Source of the DNA: Schmidtea polychroa
Taxonomy: Eukaryota
NCBI GenBank assembly: GCA_044892525.1
Contig: CM097885.1
Coordinates: 247,504,001 to 247,568,000 of the forward strand
Length of the DNA: 64,000 nt
Direction of reading: 5' to 3'
The notes beneath the pieces were generated by a model. That model had not been told where the DNA came from. It saw only the letters and a program-made list of their open reading frames with translations, and made no database searches. Positions 31,496-51,312 of this stretch are shown piece after piece. Position 1 is the stretch's first letter. Every line of letters starts with the position of its first letter. The translations under genes were made by a program, and so were the position numbers.

Positions 31496-31652
31496 GATAT
31501 GGCCGCGATAGCTTGTAGTTTTATTGACACAATGAAATCACAACGTTTTTTAAATTCTATTTTTATCACAATATGTACATATTAAAACAAATTTAATTAT
31601 GCAATTACACAAATGTCAAACGAATAAAAAATTCTATACATGTCAAAATATA

Positions 31653-31920: not shown

Positions 31921-33879
31921 AAAATATATATATTTATTTTCGAATATTTTAAAATATTTCAATATTTCTCTTATTGATTTTTGAACATGGAATCATTTCC
32001 ATCAAATTCATTTGTTATAATTCATCAATACTGAAAGTTCTTTTAGAAAATATTTTCAATATCAAATTGCTTAATTTTATGCTTGATGCCACTTTTCCGT
32101 CTCCTTTTTCAAATTGACAACATTTTTCGTTAATTTTTCGACCCCATCGAAATCACATTTGTCGTTTAGGTTGTTCCATATCTTCTCCATTACAAAAAAA
32201 ATTTGAAATTTTAATTAAGATTAGGGAAAGAATGAAACATTGTTTATTGTCTTCTTTGTCCTAATAATCCGGTTCCATAAAATATTGATAATGCCAATGT
32301 CAACAATGCAGCAATAAAGCTTCTTTATGGTTTATACATCATATTTCGAACAAAGATAATCTTCCAAATGTTTAAGCTAAAATTACGACTACTGATGGTT
32401 ATTCATTCAGAGTTTTTATAAATTCTATTGAGCTAAGAAAATCACTTATATCTAGAGGACGACGGCATGCGTGGTATTAACCTGAAATTGGTTTACGATT
32501 ATATTTTAACTATTCCCCCAACAAGCGTGGAAGCTGGACGGGCTTTCTCTTCTTCAGGGATGTAATGTACCAAAATACTTTCTTCTTTAAATGACAAAAC
32601 TTTAAATAATTTATGTTTTTTGAGATCATATTTTAATACTAAATAATTCTTTATTTTTATGTCTATCTGTTTTAAATAAATCGGTTTTAACCATTTTGTT
32701 ACTTTAAACGATAAAAGTTTTTGAACTTTTTATTTATCCTTTTGTATTTCGATTTGTGCTTTTTCCAATTTCCGGTATTGGAAGCCCTAATCTTGACATG
32801 TGCTTTTAGAAACATGGTTAATATTATATTTTATTTCAGTTTTGTCTTTAAACCATGCCTCCTTTTTTAATTAAAATTATTGATCCAAACTCGTAATTCA
32901 GCTGGACATTATTGAGTGAAATCTGAAAATTCCGATTATTATTATACGCCTGCCTAACGAGAAAATCAATAACAGTGACATCACTTGGGATTTAAAACTA
33001 CTCATTTTTGCACATTCAAATGACATATTCTCCTTGATGATACAGATTTTGAGTTATTAAAGTCACCGTGATACCAACATTTCTACTAATCTTTGTAAAT
33101 AAATTATTGAATTTTTTCTTTATTTGCTTCTTGATATAAATCATCAATGAGCATAACATTACTCTTTTGTAATCAACATTACCAATTTTTAGCGAATCCC
33201 TTAATTATTTTATAATTTTTAATTTACAGTATCTCGTTTGTGTCTATCAATGTTCTTCACTCGCTCCACAATACCAATAACACTTATTGAATTTAGATTT
33301 GGGTAAATTTTATTTGAATATTTTGCCAAAAAAATCTATTAATACTGGACCCGACAATTAGGTAAACTGCATTATTCCGTATTCCATTTTCAAAATTAAA
33401 ATATTCAGATATTGTTTATATAAATCAATTGAACGAATTATTATTAAGAATAATTTAAATAGAGATCAGAATTAATTTGATTAAAAATGTAATTAAATAT
33501 AAATTAATTCATTTTAATCTAGATATCCTTATGCGAATTATCATTGTTAAGATGGAAAAGCTTAGCTGGAAATTTTATCGGAATTAATATGATGTGCACC
33601 AGAAATAATTTAATACAGAATTTTGCTTGCGACGGGATGGGTACAATACCATTGATGAAAAGCGTTTTTTATTTTGTTGAAAATTTTTATAAAATAAAAA
33701 AAGTGAAAAGAAACAAATAGTGCAACATTTATGAAATTTAAACAAAGATTTATACACTTGAACGGTTTTGATTGGGCAACCTTTGACATGATCTTTAAAA
33801 TTAGCTATAATTTAACAATTAAATCAAATCTTTGCAAAATTTTTATCAGCGTCTGATGGCTACATTGTCAACTGAGGAT

Positions 33880-34320: not shown

Positions 34321-34625
34321 CAAAGAGAATTCAATAAAATACTATAACCTTTGATTAATTCATTGTTGAGATATGATTTTTTGTTGAAAAATACTTGCTT
34401 TGTGATGACCTACAACATATCAAAAGTTAATGTTTTCATAAAATACTTTTTAATCACCAAAGCTATTTAAAAAGTTGAAACACAAACCATTTGTATCGAA
34501 TTTTTCGTCCTTTCAGCGACATAATTTCATCATGGGACATGTGTGAACATTAAGCAAGATTTTTTAAATTTGAATTTTAAATATCTTTTCAATTTATATG
34601 ACAATACAGAATTTGATTTCATTAT

Positions 34626-36141
34626 AGTAGGTAGATGTGAGCCCCATGAATCAGTATGAGTTATCGCGCATATATACCCCCCCCCCCTTGCTGATAAGTT
34701 ATTGCGCGTTTGATCGATGAGTTATAGCGCATATATTGATTTTTAAGTGCAAAGTGCAAAATGTGCAAAATGTGCAAAATGTGCAAAATGTGTAAAATTT
34801 ATTCAGGTGTGCTTTTCTTACATTAAAGATTTCACCCAGACATTTTCCACGAAAAAAGATTTGTTATTTGTCGACACAGATTAATTTATATGAAATCAAC
34901 AAAAAGATTTCTTTTCAATATATATGTCACGTTTTTAAGGAATAATTTTTGGAACATTGGGAACCAAGTATATTTAGTCGAGACATCCTTAACAAAAAAG
35001 TTGCGTCTTGATTCAACTAAGAAGATTCTTTAATAAAGATCTCGAAAAATTTCTTGGTTCTCCTAGGAATTCAGAAAGTGTAATCAATCAATATTTTTGG
35101 GCTATCTTGAGAACGAGACATATTTAGTCGAGACATCCTTAACAAAAAAGTTCAACTAAGAAGATTCCGAAATAAAATCCTCGAAAAGTTTCTTGGTTCT
35201 CCCAGGAATTAAGAAAAGGTAAAATCAATCGATAATTCTCAAAAATTCGGCTATGTCCGAATGTATTATGAATTATCACGGATTTTGATTGATGAGTTAT
35301 TGCGCGTTTGATCGATGAGCTATCGCGCATATATACCCCCACCCCCCTACTGATGAGTTATTGCGCGTTTGATCGATGAGCTATCGCGCATATATACCCC
35401 CACCCCCCTACTGATGAGTTATTGCGCGTTTGATCGATGAGTTATCGCGCATATATTGATTTTTAAGTGCAAAGTGCAGAAAGTGCAAAATGTGCAAAAT
35501 GTGCAAAATTTAGTCAGATGTGCTTTTCTTACATTAAAGATTTCACCCAGACATTGTTCACGAAAAAGATTTGTTATTTGTCGACACAGATTATTTTATA
35601 TGAAAATCAACGAAAAGATTTCTTTTCGATATAAATTTCACGTTTTTAAGGAATAATTTTTGGAACATTGGGAACCAAGTATATTTAGTCGAGACATCCT
35701 TAACAAAAAAGTTGCGTCTTGATTCAACTAAGGAGATTCCGAAATAAAATCCTCGAAAAGTTTCTTGGTTCTCCCAGGAATTAAGAAAAAGTAAAACCAA
35801 TCGATAATTCTCAAAAATTCGGCTATGTCCGACGGACTTGAAATATTTTCAACCATTCTATTTATGACAGTGCATCGTAAAATTTACATATTTTGATTCG
35901 ACTTTCAGCTTTCTATAGTAGTTTTGAATGGAGATTTCAAATCTTTGTTCAAATGTATACTGTTATTGTGTCAACTATGAATATTTGTTTAAATAAACTC
36001 ATTTGATTAATATATAGAGCCAATATAAATAGAGATATTAATACCAATGTTTTTGTTTTATATGTAATTAAAATCAGAGATGTCGAATCTTTGTTTTAAA
36101 AATTATTTTTCGCGCGCAATTTAAAAAATATTTACTATTTC
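34626..36141 (+). repeat. left TIR (1516 bp) with internal duplications
   Basis: Reverse complement of 49704-51211 apart from a few indels and substitutions. Confidence 0.95.
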
Positions 36142-36180
36142 TAATTAAATTTTCAAAACAATGAAACATTTATTAAAAAA

Positions 36181-36537
36181 CTATTTGAAATATTTATACA
36201 ATTCGTTGAGTAGAATGTTTACTGTTTGTTTTCTTTTGTAAGTAATACATTCTTGACATTGATATTGACAACATGAATCTTTTAGTAATTGAGTTTGCTT
36301 TTCATATCCATACATCATAAATTTATGGTGAAAAATAATGCGCTCTATGTTAATCCCAGTTGCCTGAAATATTTTGGCTGGTGCAATTTCCGGAGCATAA
36401 TTTATAATTTCATCTTTGATTTCCGGATAAATCTCAAACACTTTATTAATTAGAATTTCTATTTGATAATCTAAACATAATTTTAAAAATTTAAGAATAA
36501 AATATATTTATTTACCGATTTCAGAAACTTGTGACAT
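36181..36537 (-). CDS. Polinton accessory protein, ~103 aa, CCxxxCxxC motif; predicted two exons (36537-36516, 36470-36181)
   Basis: Track ORF starts at GTG; removing a 45-nt G/GTAAAT...TTTAG intron joins MSQVSEI in frame to DYQIEILINKVFEIYPE. Confidence 0.6.
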
Positions 36538-36573
36538 TGTAATAAATGAAACAAATGTTAAAGTGTACAATAT

Positions 36574-37023
36574 TTATAGTTTTTGTGAACCAATCAAATC
36601 ATTTACATCATTTATAATTTTGTTGACAATCCAATTATAATTTAGAGTTTTTAAACCAAGTACAACTATTTTTCCACTAGAAAACAAGTTTACACACAAG
36701 GGGTTATAAGATATGAGACGCAAACCCGGGAATATTTCTGGTTCATATACACATTTTGTTTTCTTTGACAAATATTGCAAATTAATTAGTTGTTTGATAT
36801 CAATAGTAATTGTACAAGATTGAAGATGAACATCTTTAATATTATAATGTATGCTTTCAATAGGTTTTTTGCAACCCATTATTCGACATTTCCCTGTCTT
36901 GAAGAATATAATTGTATAATTATCAGTTTTATCTATTATTTGCTGAGGTTTACCATAAGGAAAATTCATATTTTGTATAACTTTTAATGAAACCCGTCCA
37001 CGGTAATTAATATTTACTAACAT
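36574..37023 (-). CDS. TATA-binding protein (TBP)-like protein, 149 aa
   Basis: Two TBP repeats: LVNINY...IIFFKTGKCRIMGCK and LQSCTI...YEPEIFPGL...VNLFSSGKIVVLGLK, compared with TBP YEPELFPGL...LIFVSGKVVLTGAK. Confidence 0.88.
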   Translation of the reverse strand: MLVNINYRGRVSLKVIQNMNFPYGKPQQIIDKTDNYTIIFFKTGKCRIMGCKKPIESIHYNIKDVHLQSCTITIDIKQLINLQYLSKKTKCVYEPEIFPGLRLISYNPLCVNLFSSGKIVVLGLKTLNYNWIVNKIINDVNDLIGSQKL

Positions 37024-37180
37024 TATTGAAAATAATGGATAACTCTAGGTAATTATATTGATTATTTTAAATTTTAAATATTATTATGACAACCAAATTA
37101 TGATATCATAACAACACGATTTTTAAACAGAAACATTTATTTAATAAAAATAACATAAGATATTAACATACATAATTTCT

Positions 37181-37573
37181 TTATAATTTTCCACTTACAA
37201 TCTTCCATATAGGTAATATTGCTGTACTTGGCGCTATTTTATAACCTTGAATGCAAATTTTCATATTCCATTTAGCATTAGGTTTAAATGGGATTTGATT
37301 CTCGTCTTCATCATAAAATTTCGTTGATGGACCGCCTATGAATGAACCATTTTCATTAACTATAAGTTGCTTGTTGATTCGTCCAAATATTGTAGTAATC
37401 GCTTCTTGATCTTCTTGAGAGAATTCTTCAATCCAGTAATTGTAACTAGTTTTCACTAGTTCAACAGGAATCAACAAATTGTAATTGATCGGATTGACTA
37501 GTAAATGTATTTGATGCTCATGAAAAATATAAGTTGCTTTAAATAACGGTTGCTCATTCTTCATATTCAACAT
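37181..37573 (-). CDS. hypothetical protein, possible OB-fold ssDNA-binding protein (130 aa)
   Basis: ATG-started intact ORF; TKFYDEDEN...MKICIQGY...PIWKIV resembles the C-terminal strands of NCLDV/T7 gp2.5-type SSBs (recalled pattern, not searched). Confidence 0.5.
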   Translation of the reverse strand: MLNMKNEQPLFKATYIFHEHQIHLLVNPINYNLLIPVELVKTSYNYWIEEFSQEDQEAITTIFGRINKQLIVNENGSFIGGPSTKFYDEDENQIPFKPNAKWNMKICIQGYKIAPSTAILPIWKIVSGKL

Positions 37574-37728
37574 TTGAAATAATGATAAACTTTAAGTTCT
37601 ATACACACACTGTCTCACATACATCTCTCATTTGTTCATTTTATCAACAAATCAAATACTTGTTACATTAACCAATCAAAATATGCATTAATCTTGCATA
37701 TTAATTTCAAGATACATTCATTTTTACA

Positions 37729-38163
37729 ATGAATGAATACATAATCGCCATTGTCAATGGTTTAATTTATAAAAGTGATGATCAAACAATAAATTGTTTA
37801 TTAAAAATAATAAAAGAAGTAGAGCTTCGATGTACCATTGATTTCTCTTCTATTTTATCATCGGAAGGTAATCAGGAAAAAACATTCAAGGATGTCTTTG
37901 AATCGTTGTTTGAGGATGGTATATGTTGGTCTAAAGTCATCGTTAGCTTAATGTATGTCAGAAACATTCTTATTTTATGCCCAAATGAACATCCAAAATA
38001 TATGAACTGGTCAGTGCAAGAAATTACAAAAATATACCCATGGATCAAAGAAAATGGTGACTGGAAATATATAAAAAAATTAGAGTTACATTTTTGGTTA
38101 AGAACTATGTTTAAACGTTTCATTATATTTTTTGTCAATTTAATAAAAATTTATAAACTTTGA
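37729..38163 (+). CDS. Bcl-2-like protein (144 aa)
   Basis: BH1-like LFEDGICWSKVIVSL (Bcl-2 family LFRDGVNWGRIVAFF), BH2-like WIKENGDW (WIQENGGW), hydrophobic C-terminal tail. Confidence 0.85.
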   Translation: MNEYIIAIVNGLIYKSDDQTINCLLKIIKEVELRCTIDFSSILSSEGNQEKTFKDVFESLFEDGICWSKVIVSLMYVRNILILCPNEHPKYMNWSVQEITKIYPWIKENGDWKYIKKLELHFWLRTMFKRFIIFFVNLIKIYKL

Positions 38164-38233
38164 TAGTTAATTTAACTTGCATCAAATTCATATTTATTAC
38201 TTACATATTAATAATAACATTCTAGATCAACCT

Positions 38234-38263
38234 AGAATGTTCTAGAACATTCTAGAACATTCT
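38234..38263. promoter_or_regulatory. heat-shock element with six alternating nGAAn units
   Basis: aGAAt gTTCt aGAAc aTTCt aGAAc aTTCt; further GAAnnTTC at 38341-38348 and TTCnnGAAnnTTC at ~38366-38378; TATATAA at 38354-38360. Confidence 0.75.
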
Positions 38264-38550
38264 AGTTGATTGGTAACAATAAATATTTAGATACAATAAT
38301 TAGTTATTATTTAACTATGAACAAAATCTATGAATAAAAAGAATATTCTTAGTTATATAAAAAAATTCTAGAAGATTCTATTTGGTTGTTAACAATAGTT
38401 GCTTAGATAATTAACTATTGTTTTAATATTACATTTGAATTTCAATTAATCAATTAATTTTTATCTAACAAGTAAGATTTTATTTTGCTCTTGTTAAATA
38501 TTTATTTTCTTTTCTTTCAGATATTATTCATTCAAAATAAAAGAAGAAGA

Positions 38551-38788
38551 ATGCCAAATATTAAAAAACAAACGGTAAACTTTATTTATTTAATATATAT
38601 ATTAAGTTTTTCGTTTAGAAAATATGTTGTGATATCGATCAAGGAAATGATATGGAAGATTTCTATGATACATGTAAGTTATAAATTTTTATAATAAATT
38701 AAATTTTAATTAAATACTATTTTTTTTTAATAAATTTTATAATAAGTTAAATGTTTTAGCCGCTTTTCATAATAATACATTTAAATTA
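38551..38788 (+). CDS. putative spliced micro-ORF (~35 aa, MPNIKKQTKICCDIDQGNDMEDFYDTSAFHIIHLN)
   Basis: Consecutive GT-AG introns at 38472-38520 (UTR), 38575-38618 and 38674-38759; coding status unproven. Confidence 0.35.
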
Positions 38789-39132
38789 ATTTTTTAATGA
38801 TGGTAATACGTTCCAGTATTAATTTTATATAATACAATTAAATTAATTTTTTAATGATGGTAATACGTTCCAGTATTAATTTTATAAGTTTCGATTCTAT
38901 GTTTAATTACAATAAGAAAAGCTTTCAAAATAAATTTCAATTTGTAAAATCGAAAACCCTTCAATTTAAATCAAAAATAACCGGTAATATTTTTCCAATT
39001 GCAAACTGGTTAACTAATCAAATAAAATTCAAATTCTATAAGTTTGAATTCTGCTTTAAATATTTTTGACTAAATTATATTACTTTTAACTTCAAGTAGC
39101 AAGCATATAATAAATTATTATTTATATGGTAA

Positions 39133-39316
39133 ATTGCTGACCGGACAGACAAAATAAATCCGACTAAGGGTACTTAGGGGTAGTCACCTGGGGTTGAAAC
39201 ATAGTCTATGACCTGTCCCGAGTCAAATGAGGGTCACGTGTAAAATTTCAGCATCCTAGGTCCGACGGTGGGGAATTCTATAGAAAACAAACAAACTTTC
39301 ATCTTTATATATTAGA
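39133..39316 (-). mobile_element. small Helitron-like (Lep1-type) insertion inside the Polinton
   Basis: Minus strand begins a/TCTAATATATAAAGATGAAAGTTTGTTTG and ends GTCTGTCCGGTCAGCAAT, resembling recalled ends of such elements; GC-richer than its flanks. Confidence 0.35.
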
Positions 39317-40101
39317 TTTAATTAAGGATTATTATTTTATATATATATATATATTTTTAATAAATTAAAATTGAAAAAATAGATACAAATCTTTGTGAAT
39401 TTGAGATTTTCTTTGAGATTTTCTCCATTGGGTGTCTTTTTAAAATATAATTAATATTATATTTAAACAAATTTAAACATAAATAATGTTTGTTTAAAAA
39501 AAAAATATCAAATGGTAAAAATGACAAAAACGGTAAAAATGTCAATTGTATCGTCTTATTTATAATATTAAACTAAACAACATTAATATTTTTTTAATAA
39601 ATTTTATAATAATTTTAATTTATTTTTAATATTATTAAAATAGTATAAACATTACAAGTTATTGTTTTTGCTATCATCAATACTCTATAGGAGACGCAAA
39701 GAATTCTTTATGTACCAATAAGAATACAATATTATTGATCTAGCTTTATTGCATACTTTCCATGGTACACTGGAAATCACATCACTTGCATAATAGCTTG
39801 GTCACAGAAATCTGTATTCACGTAAACATAAGGTATGAAATCATAATCACCTCTGTTGACTAAAAAAATAGTCAATACATAGAAACTGTTTACAAATGCA
39901 TCCGTTTACCTTTAGCATTTTTAACTTATAAAGTAATGGTTTTTTGTCGGATGTCTTACACTTGAATAAAATAAACTACACATTGTTTGTGATTATAAAA
40001 CTTTTTTCTCAAAATATATGGAACACAAAAGTGAAACCCGAATTATTTTAATAAAATAAAATTCATTTAATAAATATTTAAATCATTATTTATTTTAAGG
40101 T

Positions 40102-43100
40102 GTGTTATACCCAAATTATTGTCAAAACAGTAGTCACAATAAAAGCTGTCATAAAATCATGCAAACATATTATGGCAAAACATATTATCAACAAAATTAC
40201 TTTTTATGCCCATATTGCGAAACTTTAAGTTCCGATCCCTACATGTCCTTTTATAACACGCATAAGACACATTTAAATCAATTTGTGATGCGTAAAGATA
40301 AGCTTTTCAAAAGAAAGGTTTCCACTCACTTAATTAAAAATAAAAAAGCAAGATTGGAGAAAATAGAAAATACAATATCGAACTCAGAAATAATTGTAAT
40401 CATAGATTCGGAGGAAGAAGATTCGAGGCATGAAGAAACTGGAAGTTCAAGGCGCAACGAAGCAGGAAGTTTAAGGCGTGAAGAAGTTGGAAGTTCAAGG
40501 CCTGAAGATAAGCTTATCAAAAGAAAGGTTTCCACTCACTTAATTAAAAATAAAAAAGCAAGATTGGAGAAAATAGAAAATGCAAACTCAGAAATAATTG
40601 AAATCAAGGATTCGGAGGAAGAAGATTCGAGGCATGAAGAAGCTGAAAGTTCAAGGCGTGAAGACGCTGGAAGTTCAAGGCGCGAAGAAGCTGGAAGTTC
40701 AGGGCGCGAAGAAGCTGGAAGTTCAAGGCGCGAAGACGTTGGAAGATCTGAAGAAGAAGAAATTGATATAATAAATGGATCGTTTGAAATAATAGAAGAA
40801 CTAGATTTCAATGATCAAAACGAAAATATATCGAATGTTGACAGTGATAGTACTGACTATGCAGATCACTACTCACTAGTTGATGACTTTCAAACAGGAG
40901 CAGGAATATCAGATGAACCGGAAATTGAATGTGATTTATACAGAACACATAGAATTATCACACTGGACATATCTTGTTATAATATACAAAAAATAGTTAT
41001 TCCACCAACGTTGCTGATAAAATTAAACGCTTGTATAAATGAAATGAAGAGCGTTAAGATACAGTTCGAGATCAATGCAGAATTCGTCAAAGACGGTGAG
41101 CTGAAGACTGCAAGAATTTCAAACAGAGCCACAAAATTAACAGATGACTTTTTAGATGAAGGAATCGAAAGTTTGAATGAGAAAATTGCTATTAGATCGG
41201 AGTTGGGTAGCAGTTGGCGTCTTAACAGGATACTGGAGATTAATTTTAAAATAACAAAGTTTGCCGAAATTAGTCGATTGTCTGGACATCGACATATAAG
41301 AACCCGGCATCATTAAAGAATAAAATTATAAACATCCAAAATCAAGACAATCTGTGTTTTATCTACAGCGTTTTGTCTATATTGAAATACGAAGACATTC
41401 ATGAAAACCGTAACAGACCGTCACAATATTATCGGTACATGAATGAAGTAAATTACGATTCGGAAAACCCTCCGACAACATTGAATGACATAAAGAAATT
41501 TGAAGATCAGAATCCAGGATTGGCGATCAATGTTCTCTCATACGAGTCGGATGATACATATTTAAATAATGATGATGATGTTGTTATGAAACATCCGAAT
41601 ATAGACATAATTAGGAGGACAAAGGTTAAAGATGTTACACCAATATATTTATTATTACTAAGTGAAAGTAATAATTACCATTACGTTGGAATACCTAATA
41701 TCAACAGGTTAATGAACTGTCATGTATCCAATAATTGTACAGTTCGAATTCAATGTATATGGTGTGTAAATTGTCTAAATGGATTTCGGAGACAATTGAC
41801 ATATGAAAGACATCTGGCTTTATGTAAGAAAAATCAGCTTGGGACAACTTTGTACGTTATGCCAACAGAAAAAGAGCTCAGATTCAAAGATTGGTCGAAG
41901 AAAGTGACTCCACCTTTCGTAATCTATGCTGATTTCGAATCTATTTTACCAGACGATCAGCAATACCATCAGAAACACTTACCGATTTCAGCTGGACTTT
42001 TGCTGATAAACAATTTTAGCGGAGCTTCCTCATATTTTCAATTTATTGGGTTAAATTGTATATTTGATTTTTTAAAGAAAGTAGAGGAAATAGCAGAAAA
42101 TAAAGTAAATCATTATTACCAGAGAAATGGTAAACAACCTTTAATTCTCAGTCCAACGGAACAATCCTCTTTTAATATGCAATCATTTTGTTATATATGT
42201 AAGGAACACTGTGATCATTTGGTTCGAGATCATGATCATTTCAGCGGGAAATATTTAGGTGCGGCATGTGGAAAATGTAATCTTTCAAGAAGAGTACGTC
42301 GAGTGCTTCCAGTAGTATTTCATAACCTGAGAGGTTATGATATGCATCATATTTTAAAATATGGCATAAATAAATTCCCTCACTGGAATTTGAGTTGTAT
42401 TCCGACAACATCCGAAAAATTTCTTACGCTTATTGCGCATTGTAAGCAAATAAAGATCAAATTCATTGATTCATATCAGTTTGTAAATGAATCTTTGGAT
42501 AATGCAGTAAAAACAATAAACAGTTTACCAATTACAAATGCAGCATTTACGGGAACAATACAGGATTCAAAAGGTATTTTTCCATACAATTTTGCCACAA
42601 GCCTGGAAGTTCTACGAGAAACCAGAGAATTGCCACCAATTTGGGAAGGAGTGTCACAAGCCGCATATGATAAAGCAGTGAACATATGGTCTGAAACCGG
42701 ATGTGAAACCCTTTTAGACTATATGATGATATATCTAAAGTTGGATGTATATCTTTTAGCAGATTACTTTCAACAATTCAGAACTAAATCACTAGCCCAT
42801 AATGGATTGGAACCTTTAAATTTTTTCGGTATTCCGGGAATGACATGGGCATCGGCATTAATGTCATTGGATAGACCTATTGAATTGTTGCAAGATAATG
42901 AAATGTATAATTATTATGAAGCTGGCATTCGAGGAGGTATGACTTTCGTTAATAAACATCAAGTCAGAAGAGATGAAAATACAGAGTTATTATATATCGA
43001 TATAAATAACTTGTATGGATGGGCACTTAGTCAGAGTTTGCCATATGGAAAGTTTGAATGGATCCATACTGATTTGGACACTATTCTAGAAGAGTGTAAA

Positions 43101-44243
43101 TCATCAAACATAGAGAATTTACCATATGGATATACGTTGGAGGTTGATATGAATATTCCAGATGAAATTCATGATTTATTAGACGATTTACCTGTTGCAC
43201 CAGAGAAGATGTGTCCAGAAGGAACAAAAGTGGAAAAGCTTCTGTTAACACATTACCCGAAGAAAAACTATGTAATTCATTGGCGACTATTGAAAATGTA
43301 TATGTTTTTAGGAGTTGAAGTAACAAATATACATCGGGCAATCAAGTTTAACCAATCAACTATTTTCAAGGAATATGTGGAAGCCAACACCAAATTGAGG
43401 GCTCAATCAACATCTGAACTGGAGAAGGGATATTATAAACTATTAAACAACAGTTTATATGGGAAAACAGTGGAAAATTTAAAGAAGAGGATGAATTTAA
43501 GGTTGTGCAATTCACAAAGAAAAATGGTAACATATTCATCAAAACCAACCTTCAAGAGAAGTATAAAGATTGCAGATGATTTAATAGCTGCAATTATGAA
43601 CCCTGATGTTGTATGTTTGGATAGACCTTCGTATATTGGACAAACAGTTTTAGATCTCTCCAAACTAAGAATGTATGAGCTGCAGTATATAGAACTACAA
43701 AAGTACCGTGAACAGTTCAATTGTGAGATTAATATAGCAGCAGGGGATACGGATTCGTTCTTCTTGGAAATTAAGAATCTTAAATTGCAAACATTATTAG
43801 AAGCTATGATCCAAGATAATCTATTGGATGCATCTAATTATAATTCGTCTCATCCGCTGTATAACAGAAGATTAGATTCTGTTATAGGAAAGTTTAAGGA
43901 TGAAAGTAAGGGAGTCCTATATGATGAATGGATATTTCTTCGGCCAAAGCTTTATAGTTTGTTGGGTGGTCCAAAGAAAACTATTAAAGCCAAAGGTATT
44001 AGATTGAATGAAACTGAGATAGATCATCAATCATACATCGACTGTTTTAATGGAATGGAAATACCTAAAGTCATACAAACGAGGCTTGGGTCCAAAAATC
44101 ATCAACTTTACACATTTAAATCAACAAAGTTGGCTCTGTCAAATAAGGATGATAAAAGGGTATGGGTGGGTCGGAACAAAAGTTTTGCATATGGACACTA
44201 TAGTATAAATATTGTTGATAATGATGATAATATATTTGCATGA
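40102..44243 (+). CDS. polB: protein-primed DNA polymerase B, split by a one-base frameshift near 41303 (~1380 aa if joined)
   Basis: YIDINNLYG, KLLNNSLYGK and GDTDS motifs; endonuclease VII-like CYIC...RDHDH...ACGKCN insert; INIQNQDNLCF lies upstream of the 41373 ORF in the same frame. Confidence 0.95.
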
Positions 44244-44388
44244 TTATATGTGAAATCAACTGTCAAATTTCCTTAAACAGACATTCTATTTTTTATGTAT
44301 ATAAAGAGTTGTTATTGTTATTTAATAAAATATTGTACAAAAACTGTGTTATTTTAGTTATTTTTGAAAATAAAGAAATGAACACCAA

Positions 44389-44773
44389 CTAATATTTATT
44401 AAACTCAAAACATAACCAAACAATACAATGTTGTCCACATGTAACTGTTAGCGGTTCTTGATAACGAATTCTATTGTACACGATAGGTTTTGATAATTTC
44501 GACAACTTCGACACTAACAGAGGCGGATAATAGTAACCCATCGGATCAAACACTTTAATCTTTTCAGGTTTAACAAATACTGCTAGCCAATGTTCGCCAT
44601 CGAGACTTGATGATTGGGTATTGACTATTAAAGCATTGTTACTTTCAAGAAAAGGGATTTTATCCAGCGGATAAACTCCTAAAAACCTGTCTCCAAACAG
44701 ATTTGTTGCAATACAATTAAGCTGAACAGAACTAATCAAGTAAATCGTTTATTAGAAAGTAAACTTACTCCAT
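44389..44773 (-). CDS. adenain-like cysteine protease; predicted 5-nt first exon plus 37-nt intron (115 aa)
   Basis: GEHW, VFDPMG and YQ...TCGQHC catalytic motifs; ATG GA/GTAAGT...TTAG/T TCT GTT gives MDSVQL. Confidence 0.9.
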
Positions 44774-44803
44774 ACTTCAACTTACTCCATACTTCATCTT
44801 TGT

Positions 44804-46033
44804 TTAAACTAGAATTGACCGATTTGCTGAAATCTGTATTTCGCTTTCAAAAACTCCATAAATAATTACATATACAGGAGATGTTAAAGCCTTGTTGAAT
44901 TTAATATCAAGTCTCAGATTTCCATTTTGTGGCAATTGACTTTGATTCCAATCAAAGTCTGAAGCCAAAATGAATGTAAAGAAAGGATATTTGGTCTTAA
45001 AATCTACAATGTCGATTCCGCAATTTAAATTCTTATCTAAATAACCCATATTTCGAACTATAGATTGCATATAGGTCGCAGCATAGTTATCGTTGTCGAA
45101 ATCTTGAGTATATGTCTCACGATAATCGGAATTTTTTGATAAAGTTAAAGAAGTTATACTGAAATGTGCGAATTTTGAGCTAGTTTCTGTATATGAACCA
45201 TTATATTGTGCTTCTGATTGGAAGGTTACAAGAATAAAATTTGGCAAACGTTTATCGCCAAATATTTGTTCTTTATAAAATGAGGATGAATCTTTACTTA
45301 TTGCAAAGGCAACAATTTCTTTGGTTTTGATAGGATAAATCGCATGTTGTGAATTAAGACCAATCTGATGGCCTGCCAACACTGATGACTCAACTCGTAC
45401 ACGGCTAACCATTAATTTTGCATCAACCAACTGATATTTTGGTGATGCTCCAGCTACAGATGTATCCAAACAAAATTTTGAGTCTGATCTCTTCATACGA
45501 ATATGTACATTGACTCCTGGTAGTAAATATTTAGGCTGATCCATAAAATCTAGTTGTAATGATGAACACATTGAAAACAGTCTTGATTTCGCAATCCATG
45601 TTTTCCTAAAATCTTTACTTCCATAACCCATCGGCGCAAGACAAATACTTTTTGTATCTCCGTTATAGTTTAAAATTGTTTCAATTAAAGCTTTGTGTGC
45701 ATATGTGTTGTTGCCACTTTCGATTTTGATATTATTAAAACCCAGAATAACATCTTTAAATAGAGTATGAAACATGTAGTTGGTTGGAATTACATCAACA
45801 CCATCTGCCAGATCTTTATTGTCTTTATCTACAACCTTCAGTTGAATGGATAATAGAGTGTCATTCAAATCTAAATATTCAGTCTGTGAACCGTTAACAA
45901 AAAATTCTACATCATTCCTTGAATCAGTAATTGAATTCATAGGAAATACATCTTCAAATATTCCATTTTCAATTACTACTTGTGGAGACGGACGATCAAA
46001 AATACACAATTCAGTTTTACCGGAGATCATCAT
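44804..46033 (-). CDS. double jelly-roll major capsid protein (409 aa from ATG 46033)
   Basis: N-terminal KTELCIFDRPSPQ, YLDLNDTLLSIQLKV and C-terminal GNLRLDIKF..L...V.VIIYG.FE match Polinton MCP. Confidence 0.92.
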   Translation of the reverse strand: MMISGKTELCIFDRPSPQVVIENGIFEDVFPMNSITDSRNDVEFFVNGSQTEYLDLNDTLLSIQLKVVDKDNKDLADGVDVIPTNYMFHTLFKDVILGFNNIKIESGNNTYAHKALIETILNYNGDTKSICLAPMGYGSKDFRKTWIAKSRLFSMCSSLQLDFMDQPKYLLPGVNVHIRMKRSDSKFCLDTSVAGASPKYQLVDAKLMVSRVRVESSVLAGHQIGLNSQHAIYPIKTKEIVAFAISKDSSSFYKEQIFGDKRLPNFILVTFQSEAQYNGSYTETSSKFAHFSITSLTLSKNSDYRETYTQDFDNDNYAATYMQSIVRNMGYLDKNLNCGIDIVDFKTKYPFFTFILASDFDWNQSQLPQNGNLRLDIKFNKALTSPVYVIIYGVFESEIQISANRSILV

Positions 46034-46406
46034 TTTCGAATATTGTTCCACGACCTTTCCATCTTTTGTTTATACGAGATTTTCGTCGCTTACTCAAAAT
46101 TTGTTGTGGTGTTGATGTTGGAGGTTTTTTAGTTTCATTTGGTTTAGAAATCTTTGCTGCACTTGGCATCAATTTCCCAATTTCATTCATTGCATGTCTT
46201 TTCAATGTTGGTAGTATTTTTTGATCTTTCATTACCACATCCTTTGCTGTTCTCATGCCAAATGAACCAATCTTTTTAAGTATTGGAAGTGCGAACCTTC
46301 CAATTGTTTGCAACCATCCGGATCCATATTGCTTACCCATAAAATATGGTAATTCTCCACCAGTTTGACTATTACTATATAACGACACAATATCAGGATA
46401 AGACAT
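46017..46406 (-). CDS. basic virion core / membrane-active protein with Gly-Gly-type cleavage sites
   Basis: QTGG and QYGSG followed by amphipathic WLQTIGRFALPILKKIG; Lys/Arg-rich tail; conserved position upstream of MCP. Confidence 0.7.
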   Translation of the reverse strand: MSYPDIVSLYSNSQTGGELPYFMGKQYGSGWLQTIGRFALPILKKIGSFGMRTAKDVVMKDQKILPTLKRHAMNEIGKLMPSAAKISKPNETKKPPTSTPQQILSKRRKSRINKRWKGRGTIFENDDLR

Positions 46407-47409
46407 TCACCTTTCGAAAATGTAAAGTCAAATGGGTTTTTGAATCTTTTGAAAAGTTTATCAATTTTCCAGAATCATCACGTATATTAATTTCTATATT
46501 GTTTATACATGATGTTGCAACAGATAAATACATAGGATTTTCAATCGTTATCTGTACCACTTCATCTTGTTCATGCTTTTCAACCCATACTGCTTTCATT
46601 AGAGGAACACTTACATCACCAACAATTACAGATTCAACAATATTACTATAAATGAACATTTGCTGATGAAGTTTAATTATTTTTGGTTTCGATGTTCCTT
46701 CGTTAACTTTTAAGTTTTGTATATACGTTTCTTTTGATAATCCTAATGTCTTTACCAAATTAGAGTCAAATTTCATTTGGCCAACATTCGGATTCATTTG
46801 AAATTTAAAAAATTTGTCTAATTCAACAACAGCGAAAATATCTGCACAATGTTTTGTTAAATAAACTTTTAATTGATCAAGATCTGTAATATACAAATCA
46901 TCTTGAAATGTATAGCTATGCTCAACAGCTTTGTTATACAAGAGTTGAAATTTGAATATAGCATCAGTTTTTGGAAGAGTATCAATATCAAATTTCACCG
47001 TTTCATCAAAAGTGTTACGCAATAGAGTAAATCCTAGGCGTTTTGCATCAGTTAAGGTTTCAAATAAAAATTGAAATGGTCGCTTCAAACATTGAAAGTA
47101 TAAATATCTATCCTCAACATATATTATCGCATTTGTATTTGCTTGATTGATCATTTCATAGCTATCTTGAATTATCTGCACTTTGACAATTTCTGATACT
47201 GATTCCATCTTGGTATATTCAATCTTGGATTTACTGTAAAACGGAAAGAGATTGTATACAAATGTAAAACCCAACAAGGACACTTCCCAACTACCATTTA
47301 AATAGATTGGATTTTGAAGTTCGACAATAAATTTACTGGCATTGTTATTTGGATGAATTAAAGGAGAGCTATTGGTGGGTAAAATCATGTAAAAATTAGT
47401 TTTATTCAT
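46393..47409 (-). CDS. penton (single jelly-roll minor capsid protein), 338 aa from ATG 47409
   Basis: FYMILPTNSS..HPNN.ASKF.VEL..PI.L.GSWEVSL at the N-terminus; YSNIVE..IVGD..PL and I.I.IRD..G..I.F at the C-terminus. Confidence 0.9.
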   Translation of the reverse strand: MNKTNFYMILPTNSSPLIHPNNNASKFIVELQNPIYLNGSWEVSLLGFTFVYNLFPFYSKSKIEYTKMESVSEIVKVQIIQDSYEMINQANTNAIIYVEDRYLYFQCLKRPFQFLFETLTDAKRLGFTLLRNTFDETVKFDIDTLPKTDAIFKFQLLYNKAVEHSYTFQDDLYITDLDQLKVYLTKHCADIFAVVELDKFFKFQMNPNVGQMKFDSNLVKTLGLSKETYIQNLKVNEGTSKPKIIKLHQQMFIYSNIVESVIVGDVSVPLMKAVWVEKHEQDEVVQITIENPMYLSVATSCINNIEINIRDDSGKLINFSKDSKTHLTLHFRKVNVLS

Positions 47410-48428
47410 TTCAACTGAGATTCCAGTATCCAAGTAGGGTTTTGATAACCATGCCATTTGACATAATATTGTTTATGCTTCCCTTTTCCTCTGGTCTTTA
47501 GAATTTCTTGTATTCTAAAAGTTGTAGGACTTGGAATAACTTGTAATTCTTGTTCATAAAATTTACCTATAATTTCATTGTTATCATAATCCTTAATGAC
47601 ATACATTATTGGACTCTGTTTAGTGTTAATCTTCGAAATTTGAAAAACTTCGTCGCTCCAATTACTATCAAAGTTTTTAATGAATGGAGAAGCACTAATT
47701 TTTGATATTCTTACATAATCACTGATTTTATATTTTGCTTTCTTGGGTTTTGGAACTTGTCGAGATAACCATAATTTGACTTGATTATCATTTGAAACAT
47801 CAACTGGTCTTAATCCATTTAAACCACGGTGCGAGGAATGATTATATGAATGAATCAGATTTTGTAAAACATGTATCCATGTCTTATTGCCTTGATGTAC
47901 AAAATACTTTTTCAATTTATCTCTCAATGTACGATTAAATCGTTCGACATAGGCTGCCTTATATTGAGAATGAACAGTGTAGTGATTTACATGATTTTCT
48001 TTTAGAATTTGTTTAACTTTACTGTTGTAAAATTCCTTACCCAAATCAGTTTGCAAATTATCGGGATGTCCATCAGCAAATAAACTCTTTATTGCTTGAG
48101 CAATTTCACTAGCAGATTTAGTTTTAACAGGTATAGCTCTCGCAAATCGGCTAAATATGTCAATACATGTTAAAATATATTTGTAACCTTTGTTGATACT
48201 GGAATATGGAATCATTTCCAACAAATCCGCTTGCCATAAATCATCAATACCAAATGTTTTATATGCTCTTGTTGGAAATCTTTTTAACATCGGTTTGTTG
48301 AGACTGTATGCAAGTTGGCTTGATAACCAATTTCTTGTCTCTTTCTTTGATTTCTTCATTGCTTTCTGTAGTCTGTCGATTCCGCCGAAAGATGCTGGGT
48401 CTCTTGGATTTGTCCAAATTTTCTCCAT
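47406..48428 (-). CDS. int: retroviral-like DDE integrase with C-terminal chromodomain (340 aa from ATG 48428)
   Basis: WQADL, IDIFSRFA, LQTDLGKEF, VERFNRTL; ILKTRG...YYVKWHGY..TWI chromodomain. Confidence 0.95.
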   Translation of the reverse strand: MEKIWTNPRDPASFGGIDRLQKAMKKSKKETRNWLSSQLAYSLNKPMLKRFPTRAYKTFGIDDLWQADLLEMIPYSSINKGYKYILTCIDIFSRFARAIPVKTKSASEIAQAIKSLFADGHPDNLQTDLGKEFYNSKVKQILKENHVNHYTVHSQYKAAYVERFNRTLRDKLKKYFVHQGNKTWIHVLQNLIHSYNHSSHRGLNGLRPVDVSNDNQVKLWLSRQVPKPKKAKYKISDYVRISKISASPFIKNFDSNWSDEVFQISKINTKQSPIMYVIKDYDNNEIIGKFYEQELQVIPSPTTFRIQEILKTRGKGKHKQYYVKWHGYQNPTWILESQLK

Positions 48429-48489
48429 TGCAACAATTTGAATTAAAATCAAGTTTGAAATTCGGTAATGAAGGACTACCACCCATTGT

Positions 48490-49092
48490 TTATGAACTTC
48501 GACTTCCTAATAAACCTGCTCCACCTAATAAAGATAATGCAAGAGGAATTAATGCAGCTATAAATCCTCCTTGTTGTTTATACATAATCTTTCTCATTTG
48601 TTTTTTGTTTTTGCTATTTACAAGTGATAGAAGCGATTTCTTGTGTTTTTCCAAAATATGTTTTCTTGCACTGCTTATATTTATCTTCCCATGTACAACT
48701 TTCATTATAATATCAAGTAAATCATCTATCACAAATGTAGGGAATGTTTGTAAAATTATCATTCTTGATTGTTTAGGAGCCTTCAACAAAGAATTAAAAT
48801 ATGGTAAGCTTCTTGGAATTTTGATTTTTCTAGATGCTATAAAATCTTTAGGTTTTTGTTTTGATAATTGAAACTCTTTTGGTTCAGTGTAACTGGTTTT
48901 CAGTGGAATTTTATTTGCAATTTTATTTGTAATTTTCCTCTTCTTACGCTTTGCAATCAAATTCTTCAATTTCTTTGAAGGTTTGATAATTACTTTTTGA
49001 AAAGACATTATTAATCTTTTCAAGTGATCAACTTTGTTTATATACTGTTGCACCGTTTTTGTTAAATATATCTGTTCGAACTCGTAATTCAT
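48490..49092 (-). CDS. basic Polinton structural protein ending QQGG-FIAALIPLALSLLGG (start may be ATG 49008)
   Basis: Lys-rich body with a C-terminal QxGG site and hydrophobic helix, as seen in Polinton core proteins. Confidence 0.7.
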   Translation of the reverse strand: MNYEFEQIYLTKTVQQYINKVDHLKRLIMSFQKVIIKPSKKLKNLIAKRKKRKITNKIANKIPLKTSYTEPKEFQLSKQKPKDFIASRKIKIPRSLPYFNSLLKAPKQSRMIILQTFPTFVIDDLLDIIMKVVHGKINISSARKHILEKHKKSLLSLVNSKNKKQMRKIMYKQQGGFIAALIPLALSLLGGAGLLGSRSS

Positions 49093-49651
49093 CCGAACAT
49101 TTTTGGGTAAAGTCTAGAAATAAATATCCATGGGGAATTTTAGTTGCATCTTGAAATGCTTCTAGTAGAAACTTCCTATTGTTTGGGTATGCTTGTCTTG
49201 CTAGAAAATCAATGACTGTTGCATCTCTAGGGTTTTTAAAAATTGTTAGATAATGTACATTTAAATTACGAGTTCTATGATTTCCTCCTTGATGGAAAAG
49301 ATTTTGGGTTATAAAAATAACTGTAACTCCAACATGTCTAGAAATCTTTGTAAACAAATTATTAAATTCCTTTTCTTTGTTGGCTTCTTGATATAAATCA
49401 TCAATGATGATGACATCTCTCTTTTGTAAACGTTTTGTCCAATCTTTATCAAACCCTTTTATAATTTTCATTTGTACTTTACAGAATTCTGAATGCGTCA
49501 AACCATTTTCAGTTTCTGAACCTCGATGCCAATATATTTTGTTGAATTTTTCAACAAACAAATTAGACTGAAGCAATTTACATACAAAAAGCGTTTTACC
49601 GCTTCCACTAGGACCGACAATTTGATAAACAGCTTCATTTTGTAATTCCAT
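49028..49651 (-). CDS. FtsK/A32-family genome-packaging ATPase
   Basis: Walker A GPSGSGKT, Walker B IIIDD, SRH..VTVIFITQNLF; TATATAAA on the minus strand at 49684-49677. Confidence 0.95.
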   Translation of the reverse strand: MELQNEAVYQIVGPSGSGKTLFVCKLLQSNLFVEKFNKIYWHRGSETENGLTHSEFCKVQMKIIKGFDKDWTKRLQKRDVIIIDDLYQEANKEKEFNNLFTKISRHVGVTVIFITQNLFHQGGNHRTRNLNVHYLTIFKNPRDATVIDFLARQAYPNNRKFLLEAFQDATKIPHGYLFLDFTQKCSDELRVRTDIFNKNGATVYKQS

Positions 49652-49703
49652 TTAAAAAGATGTACTACAAATATTGTTTATATAATGAGTCGAAAAACAT
49701 GTT

Positions 49704-51211
49704 GAAATAGTTAATATTTTTTAAATTGCGCGCGAAAAATAATTTTTAAAACAAAGATTCGACATCTCTGATTTTAATTACATATAAAACAAAAACATTG
49801 GTATTAATATCTCTATTTATATTGGCTCTATATATTAATCAAATGAGTTTATTTAAACAAATATTCATAGTTGACACAATAACAGTATACATTTGAACAA
49901 AGATTTGAAATCTCCATTCAAAACTACTATAGAAAGCTGAAAGTCGAATCAAAATATGTAAATTTTACGATGCACTGTCATAAATAGAATGGTTGAAAAT
50001 ATTTCAAGTCCGTCGGACATAGCCGAATTTTTGAGAATTATCGATTGGTTTTACTTTTTCTTAATTCCTGGGAGAACCAAGAAACTTTTCGAGGATTTTA
50101 TTTCGGAATCTCCTTAGTTGAATCAAGACGCAACTTTTTTGTTAAGGATGTCTCGACTAAATATACTTGGTTCCCAATGTTCCAAAAATTATTCCTTAAA
50201 AACGTGAAATTTATATCGAAAAGAAATCTTTTCGTTGATTTTCATATAAAATAATCTGTGTCGACAAATAACAAATCTTTTTCGTGAACAATGTCTGGGT
50301 GAAATCTTTAATGTAAGAAAAGCACATCTGACTAAATTTTGCACATTTTGCACATTTTGCACTTTCTGCACTTTGCACTTAAAAATCAATATATGCGCGA
50401 TAACTCATCGATCAAACGCGCAATAACTCATCAGTAGGGGGGTGGGGGTATATATGCGCGATAGCTCATCGATCAAACGCGCAATAACTCATCAGTAGGG
50501 GGGTGGGGGTATATATGCGCGATAGCTCATCGATCAAACGCGCAATAACTCATCAATCAAAATCCGTGATAATTCATAATACATTCGGACATAGCCGAAT
50601 TTTTGAGAATTATCGATTGATTTTACCTTTTCTTAATTCCTGGGAGAACCAAGAAACTTTTCGAGGATTTTATTTCGGAATCTTCTTAGTTGAATCAAGA
50701 CGCAACTTTTTTGTTAAGGATGTCTCGACTAAATATGTCTCGTTCTCAAGATAGCCCAAAAATATTGATTGATTACACTTTCTGAATTCCTAGGAGAACC
50801 AAGAAATTTTTCGAGATCTTTATTAAAGAATCTTCTTAGTTGAATCAAGACGCAACTTTTTTGTTAAGGATGTCTCGACTAAATATACTTGGTTCCCAAT
50901 GTTCCAAAAATTATTCCTTAAAAACGTGACATATATATTGAAAAGAAATCTTTTTGTTGATTTCATATAAATTAATCTGTGTCGACAAATAACAAATCTT
51001 TTTTCGTGGAAAATGTCTGGGTGAAATCTTTAATGTAAGAAAAGCACACCTGAATAAATTTTACACATTTTTGCACATTTTGCACTTTGCACTTAAAAAT
51101 CAATATATGCGCGATAACTCATCGATCAAACGCGCAATAACTTATCAGCAAGGGGGGGGTATATATGCGCGATAACTCATACTGATTCATGGGGCTCACA
51201 TCTACCTAACT
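49704..51211 (-). repeat. right TIR (1508 bp)
   Basis: Inverted copy of 34626-36141. Confidence 0.95.
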
Positions 51212-51312
51212 CATTATATTGATAGTTATCTTCTCTTTCCTACGGTGGAGAAGAGAGAATTTTCCAACTGTGGAGACACGAAACTAATTTGCATAAAGTT
51301 TTTATTGAAAAC

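What the first reader, a model, noticed from the sequence alone, without database searches (positions are those of the whole stretch)
38218..38381. Extended heat-shock element plus TATA box inside the Polinton: possible stress-induced activation switch
Seen: six perfectly alternating pentamers aGAAt-gTTCt-aGAAc-aTTCt-aGAAc-aTTCt (38234-38263), a partial unit at ~38218, GAAtaTTC just before TATATAA (38354) and a three-unit site at ~38366-38378. No comparable array was noticed elsewhere in the window. Established: three or more inverted nGAAn units bind the HSF trimer, and six can bind two cooperatively; the plant retrotransposon ONSEN uses HSEs for heat activation. Inference: host HSF1 could induce this element much as stress induces prophages.
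Basis: partly seen in the sequence, partly recalled or inferred. Interest (0 to 1): 0.85.

Follow-up and report, generated by a model that had tools for sequence, protein, structure and literature searches.

The report
Heat-shock promoter on Polinton polymerase gene
A virus-like DNA element in what is probably an animal genome has a textbook heat-shock switch in front of its predicted spliced DNA-polymerase gene, so host stress may turn on its replication gene, though this rests on sequence alone.

Summary
Six perfect alternating units (38234-38263), a 2-unit site, TATA (38354) and a 3-unit site lie inside a young 16.6-kb Polinton (34626-51211). No run above four units appeared in 200 shuffles, and all 12 perfect units are AGAAN against a 30% background. 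TATA and the 3-unit site alone are chance-level.

New here: the cluster is probably the promoter of the pPolB gene, which is spliced. Three GT-AG introns link an ATG at 38551 to the polymerase frame at 40100. The last junction supplies a Cys found in 23 of 24 homologous modules. A distant relative (L001) also has a spliced, TATA-led pPolB but no HSE.

Against: the array grew by local duplications and is not clearly better conserved than its flank; the 3-unit site sits between TATA and the expected start; this copy's pPolB is broken near 41316; sister copies and expression could not be checked.

Best reading: an HSF-responsive promoter on the replication gene, working like ONSEN or Helitron1_CE (about 0.55). 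Prophage-like induction of the whole element is not shown (about 0.25). No such case turned up in ten literature searches.

The parts
34626..51211 (.). Polinton/Maverick element, 16,586 bp, AG...CT ends, 6-bp target-site duplication at 34620-34625 and 51212-51217
34626..36141 (+). left terminal inverted repeat (1516 nt)
49704..51211 (-). right terminal inverted repeat (1508 nt; 2 mismatches, 4 gaps against the left)
36181..36537 (-). small gene of unknown function with a predicted in-frame 45-nt GT-AG intron (36471-36515) after codon 7; internal control for splicing
   Evidence: no Pfam match
36574..37023 (-). TBP-like gene (149 aa); also present in relative L001 (44% identity)
   Evidence: Pfam TBP E 1.9e-14; PDB TBPs
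37181..37573 (-). ORF of 130 aa, unknown function
   Evidence: no Pfam match
37729..38163 (+). Bcl-2-like gene (144 aa), ending 70 nt before the six-unit array
   Evidence: Pfam Bcl-2 E 1.1e-7, above cut-off; Bcl-xL structures E about 2e-4
38214..38265 (.). distal HSE array: five 10-bp periods, 7 of 10 half-units perfect, six contiguous at 38234-38263; near-perfect palindrome 38226-38270
38269..38273 (-). CCAAT box on the minus strand (motif identity recalled; 12 such extended sites in the window)
38278..38338 (+). two AATAAA hexamers (38278, 38333), candidate poly(A) signals of the Bcl-2-like gene
38340..38349 (.). 2-unit HSE half-site, 4 nt before the TATA box
38354..38361 (+). TATA box (TATATAAA); expected start of transcription near 38384 (inferred from the usual 30-nt spacing)
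38365..38379 (.). 3-unit HSE, in 10-bp phase with the 2-unit site, between TATA and the expected start
38362..38409 (+). second copy of the block 38246-38293 (81% over 48 nt, 116-bp offset)
38472..38520 (+). predicted 49-nt intron in the 5' UTR
38521..38574 (+). predicted exon with the ATG at 38551 (8 codons)
38575..38618 (+). predicted 44-nt intron, phase 0
38619..38673 (+). predicted coding exon (18 codons plus 1 nt; second ATG at 38652)
38674..40099 (+). predicted 1,426-nt intron, phase 1; only perfect GTAAGT donor of 71 GT in 38362-40069; holds a 57-bp tandem duplication and apparent transposon debris
40100..41316 (+). pPolB N-terminal part: Cys/His domain starting at the splice acceptor, upstream of the in-frame ATG at 40159; frame closes at 41316
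41439..44243 (+). pPolB catalytic part (934 aa), in another frame: the gene is broken in this copy or in this assembly
   Evidence: Pfam DNA_pol_B_2 E 5.7e-34
44389..44797 (-). adenovirus-type protease with a predicted short 5' intron (most likely 44732-44768, 37 nt)
   Evidence: Pfam Peptidase_C5 E 1.3e-4, above cut-off; 47% to L001 protease
44804..46033 (-). double jelly-roll major capsid protein
   Evidence: model pLDDT 92; Foldseek E 8e-16 to iridovirus and PBCV-1 capsids, 8.5e-12 to mavirus MCP
46017..47457 (-). 129-aa ORF and 354-aa ORF (the latter probably the minor capsid protein, inferred from size and position); both conserved in L001 and L002
   Evidence: no Pfam match
47406..48428 (-). 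retroviral-type integrase with C-terminal chromodomain-like region
   Evidence: Pfam rve E 9.9e-12
48490..49651 (-). 200-aa ORF (PZ-like label recalled) and A32-type packaging ATPase (49028-49651)
   Evidence: Pfam Pox_A32 E 1.4e-8

Best explanation
The cluster is the proximal promoter of the element's spliced pPolB gene, and it is built to answer the host heat shock factor. Steps: (1) shown in sequence: a six-unit AGAAN array ends about 90 nt before a TATA box, with two smaller sites next to it. (2) Strongly inferred: transcription starts near 38384 on the + strand and three introns join a short leader (ATG 38551) to the polymerase frame at 40100. (3) From established knowledge: activated HSF trimers bind such arrays, two trimers on six units, and HSE plus TATA is enough for heat induction. 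(4) Inferred, untested: heat or proteotoxic stress raises pPolB mRNA from accessible copies, tying element replication to host stress. The array was probably built by local inverted and tandem duplication and then kept. This particular copy cannot make a full-length polymerase as assembled, so any replication would need a sister copy.
For: Array far beyond chance, 12 of 12 perfect units AGAAN. A neutral 10-bp duplication would be an HSE unit in 0.4% of cases, an AGAAN one in 0.04%, and the window has 2 exact 10-bp duplications. Of 13 gene starts examined only this one has more than one inverted pair within 350 nt: 8 against 0 or 1. Polymerase homology begins at 40099-40120, above ATG 40159 and just below a stop. 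23 of 24 distinct homologous modules carry a Cys at the codon that the acceptor splits; the other is cut off at its N-terminus. The one perfect donor among 71 GT is in the right phase, yields that Cys and is open back to an ATG. Acceptor 40099 is the only one of 42 AG that opens 50 or more codons. Two other genes of the element have short 5' introns. Relative L001 has TATA, CCAAT boxes and two in-frame GTAAGT introns ahead of its pPolB. Literature passages: three inverted GTTCT units are the optimised HSE and one HSE plus TATA gave 6-fold heat induction (PMC4326385); AGAAN consensus and cooperative binding (PMC2871787).
Against: No binding or expression data. HSE absent from the 989-nt pPolB upstream region of L001. 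Between the two 116-bp-offset copies the HSE (14 of 15) is not clearly better kept than its flank (23 of 30). The 3-unit site lies between TATA and the expected start, an unusual place (recalled). TATA-like words are common here. An AG at 38759 would close an 86-nt intron and lead to a stop after 12 codons. 26 of 71 GT would also give Cys, and a weaker donor at 39240 has its own ATG. 14 of 34 homologues with the domain lack its first half and 8 of them start at the Met matching 40159. pPolB is broken in this copy. In Drosophila fewer than 15% (107 of 815) of strong HSE motifs are bound after heat shock (PMC2936546).
Confidence: 0.55

Rival explanations
1. Neutral by-product: an AT-rich spacer underwent an inverted duplication, a 10-bp tandem duplication and a 116-bp-offset duplication, and happens to read as an HSE. 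It is silent in vivo or irrelevant to the element.
For: Tandem array of period 10, 5 copies, 75% matches; palindrome reaches 5-6 nt beyond the HSE; units decay at the left edge and in the second copy, 12 of 18 half-units perfect; HSE no better conserved than flank; other local duplications nearby (57 bp, 12 bp, 18 bp); absent in L001.
Against: Only 0.04-0.4% of 10-mers would give an HSE on duplication; every perfect unit has the preferred 5' A; it sits in the proximal promoter of the replication gene; the rest of the 116-bp period is at background identity, 22 of 68, so the block was kept or copied alone.
Confidence: 0.2
2. Captured host heat-shock promoter: the promoter, 5' UTR intron and two small exons came from a host stress gene or an HSE-carrying transposon and were spliced onto pPolB in this lineage. 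It would be heat-inducible, but as a recent accident rather than an evolved switch.
For: Most homologues with the whole domain start 1-4 residues before the first Cys, without the 26-residue leader; the long intron seems to hold transposon debris (recalled resemblance); Helitrons spread HSEs in Caenorhabditis (PMC6927752 passages); the element carries a Bcl-2-like gene next door that L001 does not show.
Against: Short 5' introns occur in two other genes of this element and in L001 pPolB, so introns need no capture; no Helitron ends or second copy of the block elsewhere in the window.
Confidence: 0.12
3. The palindrome acts as a structure, not as a protein-binding site: an RNA hairpin in the 3' UTR of the Bcl-2-like mRNA or a DNA cruciform.
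For: 38210-38290 folds at -16.5 kcal/mol, z -6.4, 0 of 200 shuffles as good; it lies between the Bcl-2 stop (38163) and AATAAA at 38278.
Against: Any HSE array is palindromic by nature; the extra 10-bp unit and the two separate downstream sites add HSE units, not stem; no Rfam match in 37600-40200.
Confidence: 0.08
4. The promoter fires leftwards: TATATAA also reads on the minus strand, with the 3-unit site upstream of it, giving an antisense transcript over the Bcl-2-like gene or a leader for the 130-aa ORF and TBP-like gene.
For: On the minus strand the 3-unit site is upstream of TATA; a GTAAGT donor lies on the minus strand at 38204; HSEs have no orientation.
Against: No coding exon supported by homology on that side; 8 GTAAGT occur in the element, about one per 4 kb of strand; the + strand has a full exon chain.
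Confidence: 0.05

Closest known systems
ONSEN (Arabidopsis Ty1/copia LTR retrotransposon; PMC8376061, passages)
   Same: HSEs inside the element's own promoter; heat activation through HSFA2 gives transcripts and extrachromosomal DNA.
   Different: Plant retrotransposon with HSE in the LTR driving the whole element; shown by experiment. Here a DNA virus-like element, HSE internal, facing one gene; untested.
HSE-bearing Helitrons of Caenorhabditis (PMC6927752, passages)
   Same: [quoted passage not shown]
   Different: Rolling-circle transposon, HSEs in many copies that rewire host genes; here a single compact cluster ahead of a protein-primed polymerase.
EBV Qp promoter / EBNA1 and HIV LTR (PMC9157408, passages)
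   Same: Latent viral genomes with an HSF1 site in the promoter of a replication-related gene or of the provirus.
   Different: Unrelated viruses; natural sites are not shown here to be six-unit arrays (not checked).
Polintons/Mavericks (PMC6431247 section 10; PMC8097293 passages)
   Same: TIRs, 6-bp TSD, pPolB, integrase, ATPase, protease, capsid genes, 15-25 kb.
   Different: Intact vertebrate Mavericks are reported as intronless; this element and L001 have predicted spliceosomal introns. No host-stress promoter was found described.
Endogenous mavirus of Cafeteria (10.1101/068312, passages)
   Same: Integrated Polinton-related virus that is silent until a trans-acting factor recognises its promoter.
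   Different: Trigger is a giant-virus late factor acting on all genes; here the proposed trigger is a host stress factor on one gene.

Membership tests
Canonical heat shock element (HSF site) | Three or more contiguous inverted nGAAn units | tested here: met
   Six units at 38234-38263, three at 38365-38379; definition from PMC9157408 and PMC2871787 passages
Canonical heat shock element (HSF site) | Preference for A at position 1 (AGAAN) | tested here: met
   12 of 12 perfect units against 30% background
Canonical heat shock element (HSF site) | Lies within a few hundred bases upstream of a transcription start | tested here: inconclusive
   Six-unit array is about 120-150 nt above the expected start and 290 nt above ATG 38551; the start itself is inferred; the 3-unit site falls below TATA
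Canonical heat shock element (HSF site) | Cores conserved under selection across copies or species | tested here: inconclusive
   No sister copy available; 14 of 15 against 23 of 30 between the two local copies; absent in L001 at 31% pPolB identity
Canonical heat shock element (HSF site) | HSF binds it and confers heat-inducible transcription in vivo | not testable with these tools
   Needs binding and expression data; host not identified
Polinton/Maverick | Long TIRs with AG...CT ends and a 6-bp target-site duplication | tested here: met
Polinton/Maverick | Protein-primed family B polymerase and retroviral-type integrase | tested here: met
   Pfam DNA_pol_B_2 and rve; polymerase gene broken in this copy
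Polinton/Maverick | Packaging ATPase, adenovirus-type protease, double jelly-roll major capsid protein | tested here: met
Polinton/Maverick | Minor capsid protein | not tested
   354-aa ORF assigned by size, position and 25-26% identity to the matching ORFs of L001 and L002; no fold run
Intact vertebrate-type Maverick | Eight intact, intronless ORFs | tested here: not met
   Predicted introns in three genes and a split pPolB; criterion from PMC8097293
ONSEN-type heat-activated mobile element | Heat causes HSF-dependent transcription and extrachromosomal or new copies | not testable with these tools
   Sequence only
Helitron-supplied HSE | HSE lies within a Helitron (5'-TC, 3'-CTRR with hairpin, multi-copy) | tested here: inconclusive
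   No second copy of the block in the 64-kb window; rest of the genome not available; criteria from PMC6544945 passages

The most novel reading that the evidence does not exclude
This Polinton family is a stress-inducible animal provirus: host HSF switches on the replication polymerase directly, the adjacent Bcl-2-like gene keeps the stressed cell alive, and the element's TBP-like protein relays the signal to the capsid and integrase genes, a eukaryotic counterpart of SOS prophage induction and a reason why particles of animal Mavericks have not been seen in unstressed tissue.
Probability: 0.25. Interest if true: 0.85.

Novelty: new variant of a known kind. Interest (0 to 1): 0.6.

Why it matters
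What triggers animal Polintons/Mavericks is open: their particles have not been observed (PMC8097293, abstract in listing), and the inducible relatives found in the searches are woken by giant viruses. An HSF site on the pPolB promoter names a host trigger and a single transcript to measure in existing heat-shock RNA-seq. Separately, the spliced 5' end seen here and in L001 means ORF-based annotation truncates Polinton polymerases and misplaces their promoters by more than a kilobase.

Tried and rejected
Homologue search with the Bcl-2-like protein: 0 of 27 candidates scored. Search for long forms of the pPolB N-terminal part: 0 of 7699 candidates. Names and taxa for ten homologues could not be obtained, so the host stays unidentified; 120 listed capsid homologues carry no useful names and atlas taxa are only leads. 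The degenerate Polinton pieces in the window (about 31050-33420 and 60367-60718) keep integrase, ATPase and polymerase C-terminal fragments only, so they hold no homologous promoter. Fold search of the N-terminal Cys/His domain (model of homologue P0052, pLDDT 87): no match at E 0.001, best rows are zinc fingers at E about 2; not used as evidence. piggyBac-like and Helitron-like labels for pieces of the long intron are recalled resemblances; Pfam found nothing for the two translated piggyBac-like pieces. Rfam: no match. ATG 40159 as sole start was rejected because three invariant residues lie above it, though 8 ORF-called homologues begin there. A programmed frameshift at the pPolB break was considered: 14 of 21 homologues with a loose motif match continue in frame and 7 do not or end, so a plain break or assembly error is preferred. 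The viral and metagenome contig collections stayed unchecked, as did Repbase entries, subscription papers and all supplements, any of which could already describe such promoters.

Full report
Observation. The window has 58 runs of two or more alternating GAA/TTC units: 56 of two, one of three and one of six, and both longer runs belong to this cluster. In 200 dinucleotide-preserving shuffles no run exceeded four units. Eleven paired units fall within 170 nt, against at most five elsewhere in the window and at most six in 60 Markov simulations. All 12 perfect in-phase units are AGAAN, against a 30% background. The 3-unit site alone (1.17 expected per window) and the TATA word alone (67 TATATAA on both strands) are chance-level.

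The element. The cluster lies in a Polinton at 34626-51211 with AG...CT ends, a perfect 6-bp target-site duplication and TIRs of about 1.5 kb that differ by 2 mismatches and 4 gaps, so the insertion is young. It encodes pPolB, integrase, A32 ATPase, TBP-like and Bcl-2-like proteins, an adenovirus-type protease and a double jelly-roll capsid protein. pPolB is split in two ORFs in different frames, 40159-41316 and 41439-44243. The host is not identified. An animal is inferred from the Bcl-2 homologue, the surrounding transposon debris and atlas clusters that are mostly arthropod and nematode (weak).

What the cluster faces. At first sight the array is 1.9 kb from the nearest downstream ORF start. 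A search with the frame 40099-41313 gave 73 proteins, and many align from query residue 3 to 8, above the ATG at 40159. The aligned domain has invariant Cys and His residues, three of them above that ATG. A profile built from 16 of these proteins found the domain in 34 of the 73. Twenty of the 34 have its first half; they gave 26 pattern matches, two of them double counts, so 24 modules, and 23 of 24 have a further Cys 4-8 residues upstream; the one exception is cut off at residue 2. In the window that position is a Gly codon preceded by a stop, and its first base is the G of a T-rich AG acceptor at 40099. Of 42 AG in 38700-40115 only this one opens 50 or more codons in that phase. Of 71 GT between TATA and the acceptor exactly one is a perfect GTAAGT (38674). 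It is in phase 1, the split codon reads as Cys, and its exon is open back to an acceptor at 38618; a 44-nt intron then links it in frame to ATG 38551, and a 49-nt intron precedes that in the 5' UTR. So HSE and TATA most likely form the promoter of a spliced pPolB gene. This is a prediction; no transcript was seen.

Controls for splicing. Two other genes of the element have short GT-AG introns near their starts: 45 nt in the leftmost gene and probably 37 nt in the protease, where the spliced start matches the unspliced start of the L001 protease in length and pattern. A scan of genome contigs with the capsid alignment matched 52 stretches, of which 2 were relatives. L001 carries the same core genes and the TBP-like gene (capsid 45%, pPolB 31%, TBP-like 44%). 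Its 989-nt region above pPolB has a TATA box 42 nt before an ATG, CCAAT boxes, and two GTAAGT donors, both phase 1 and in frame, joining a C2H2-like first exon to the polymerase. L002 does not reach pPolB. Both records are titled as bacterial MAGs; the introns suggest eukaryotic DNA binned with them (inference).

Results against. L001 has no run of three units anywhere and no inverted pair above pPolB, so the HSE is not family-wide at this distance. The array has a duplication history: period 10, five copies, a palindrome reaching a few bases past the HSE, and a second copy of 38246-38293 at a 116-bp offset. Between these copies the HSE matches at 14 of 15, the next 30 nt at 23 of 30 and the rest at 22 of 68, which is background: the block is kept, but the HSE not clearly more than its tail. 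The 3-unit site lies between TATA and the expected start. An AG at 38759 would end the third intron after 86 nt and lead to a stop; 26 of 71 GT would give Cys and a weaker donor at 39240 has its own ATG. Fourteen of 34 homologues lack the first half of the domain and eight start at the Met matching 40159. AATAAA at 38278 and 38333 could put the array in the Bcl-2-like 3' UTR. Against pure chance, only 0.4% of window 10-mers would form an HSE on tandem duplication (0.04% with AGAAN), the window has two exact 10-bp duplications, and of 13 gene starts only the pPolB leader has more than one inverted pair within 350 nt.

Mechanism. Most likely (0.55), activated HSF trimers bind the six-unit array, transcription starts about 30 nt below TATA, and splicing yields pPolB mRNA, so host stress raises the replication protein. 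The motif is shown; the gene model is strongly inferred; binding follows from established knowledge (three inverted GTTCT units are the optimised site and one HSE plus TATA gave 6-fold induction, PMC4326385 passages; AGAAN and cooperativity, PMC2871787 passages); induction in vivo is not shown, and fewer than 15% of strong motifs are bound in fly cells (PMC2936546 passages). The capsid, integrase and ATPase genes face the other way and lack such arrays, so whole-element induction needs a further relay, and this copy needs a sister copy for polymerase. Rivals: neutral duplication product (0.2), captured host or transposon promoter (0.12), hairpin in the Bcl-2-like UTR (0.08), leftward promoter (0.05).

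Comparison with what is known. It works, if it works, like ONSEN (PMC8376061 passages), the HSF-1-driven full-length Helitron of C. elegans (PMC6927752 passages) and EBV Qp (PMC9157408 passages). It is a member of none of these. The element is a Polinton by every feature tested except the intronless, intact ORF set reported for vertebrate Mavericks (PMC6431247 section 10 and passages; PMC8097293 passages). The inducible relative I read about, mavirus, answers a giant-virus factor (10.1101/068312 passages); two similar papers were seen in a listing only. Ten searches listed no paper describing an HSE in a Polinton; the one paper with both 'Polinton' and 'heat shock element' is a plant review (PMC5056178, listing only). 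Subscription papers, Repbase and supplements were not seen.

Verdict. Real feature, probably a promoter of the polymerase gene, plausibly heat-responsive, unproven as an activation switch. New variant of a known kind; interest 0.6. The boldest reading not excluded, a host-stress-inducible animal provirus, has probability about 0.25 and would merit 0.85.

Noticed in passing
window 36471-36515, 44732-44768, 38472-40099; L001 3435-3721: Spliceosomal introns near the 5' ends of Polinton genes, including pPolB in two distant elements, whereas intact vertebrate Mavericks are reported intronless.
   Followed up: yes
window 36574-37023; L001 10246-10698: TBP-like gene shared by both elements (44% identity), so it is a family gene rather than a recent capture.
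   Followed up: partly
window 37729-38163: Bcl-2-like gene in a Polinton; no homologue found in the protein search and none seen in L001. Planarian Burro retroelements carry a BCL2-like motif (PMC6431247 passage).
   Followed up: partly
window 40100-40330: A Cys/His-rich domain of about 75 aa at the pPolB N-terminus, sometimes repeated two or three times in homologues; confident model, no structural match, no Pfam family.
   Followed up: partly
window 38673-38683 and 40099-40109: The two ends of the long intron are alike (8 of 11 bases), as if the intron arose from a duplicated stretch of coding sequence.
   Followed up: no
window 38760-40050: Long intron holds a 57-bp tandem duplication, a G+C-richer piece near 39160-39330 that resembles a Helitron/DINE end and a piece near 39680-39905 (minus) that resembles piggyBac transposase; both labels recalled, Pfam negative. 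38719-38757 recurs at 39586-39624 (87%).
   Followed up: partly
window 41316-41439: pPolB reading frame is broken here although TIRs and TSD are nearly perfect; real break or assembly error.
   Followed up: partly
window 40295-40760: 24-bp and about 204-bp tandem repeats expand an acidic low-complexity stretch of pPolB in frame.
   Followed up: no
window 44762-44800: 17-bp tandem duplication copies the protease start and splice donor.
   Followed up: partly
window 34656-35832 and mirror: TIRs contain an internal repeat of about 711 bp offset, 61-bp tandem units with a C-run and 9-bp arrays.
   Followed up: no
window 31050-33420 and 60367-60718: Decayed pieces of an older related Polinton (integrase, 200-aa ORF, ATPase; polymerase C-terminus), the first interrupted by other insertions.
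   Followed up: partly
window 17293-22462: Apparently intact gypsy-type LTR retrotransposon with identical 246-bp LTRs, gag and pol ORFs.
   Followed up: no
window 38158-38204 minus strand: A GTAAGT donor and weak acceptor 47 nt apart just left of the array; possibly chance, possibly a leftward transcript.
   Followed up: no
L001, L002: Eukaryote-type Polintons in records titled as bacterial metagenome-assembled genomes; probably mis-binned contigs.
   Followed up: no
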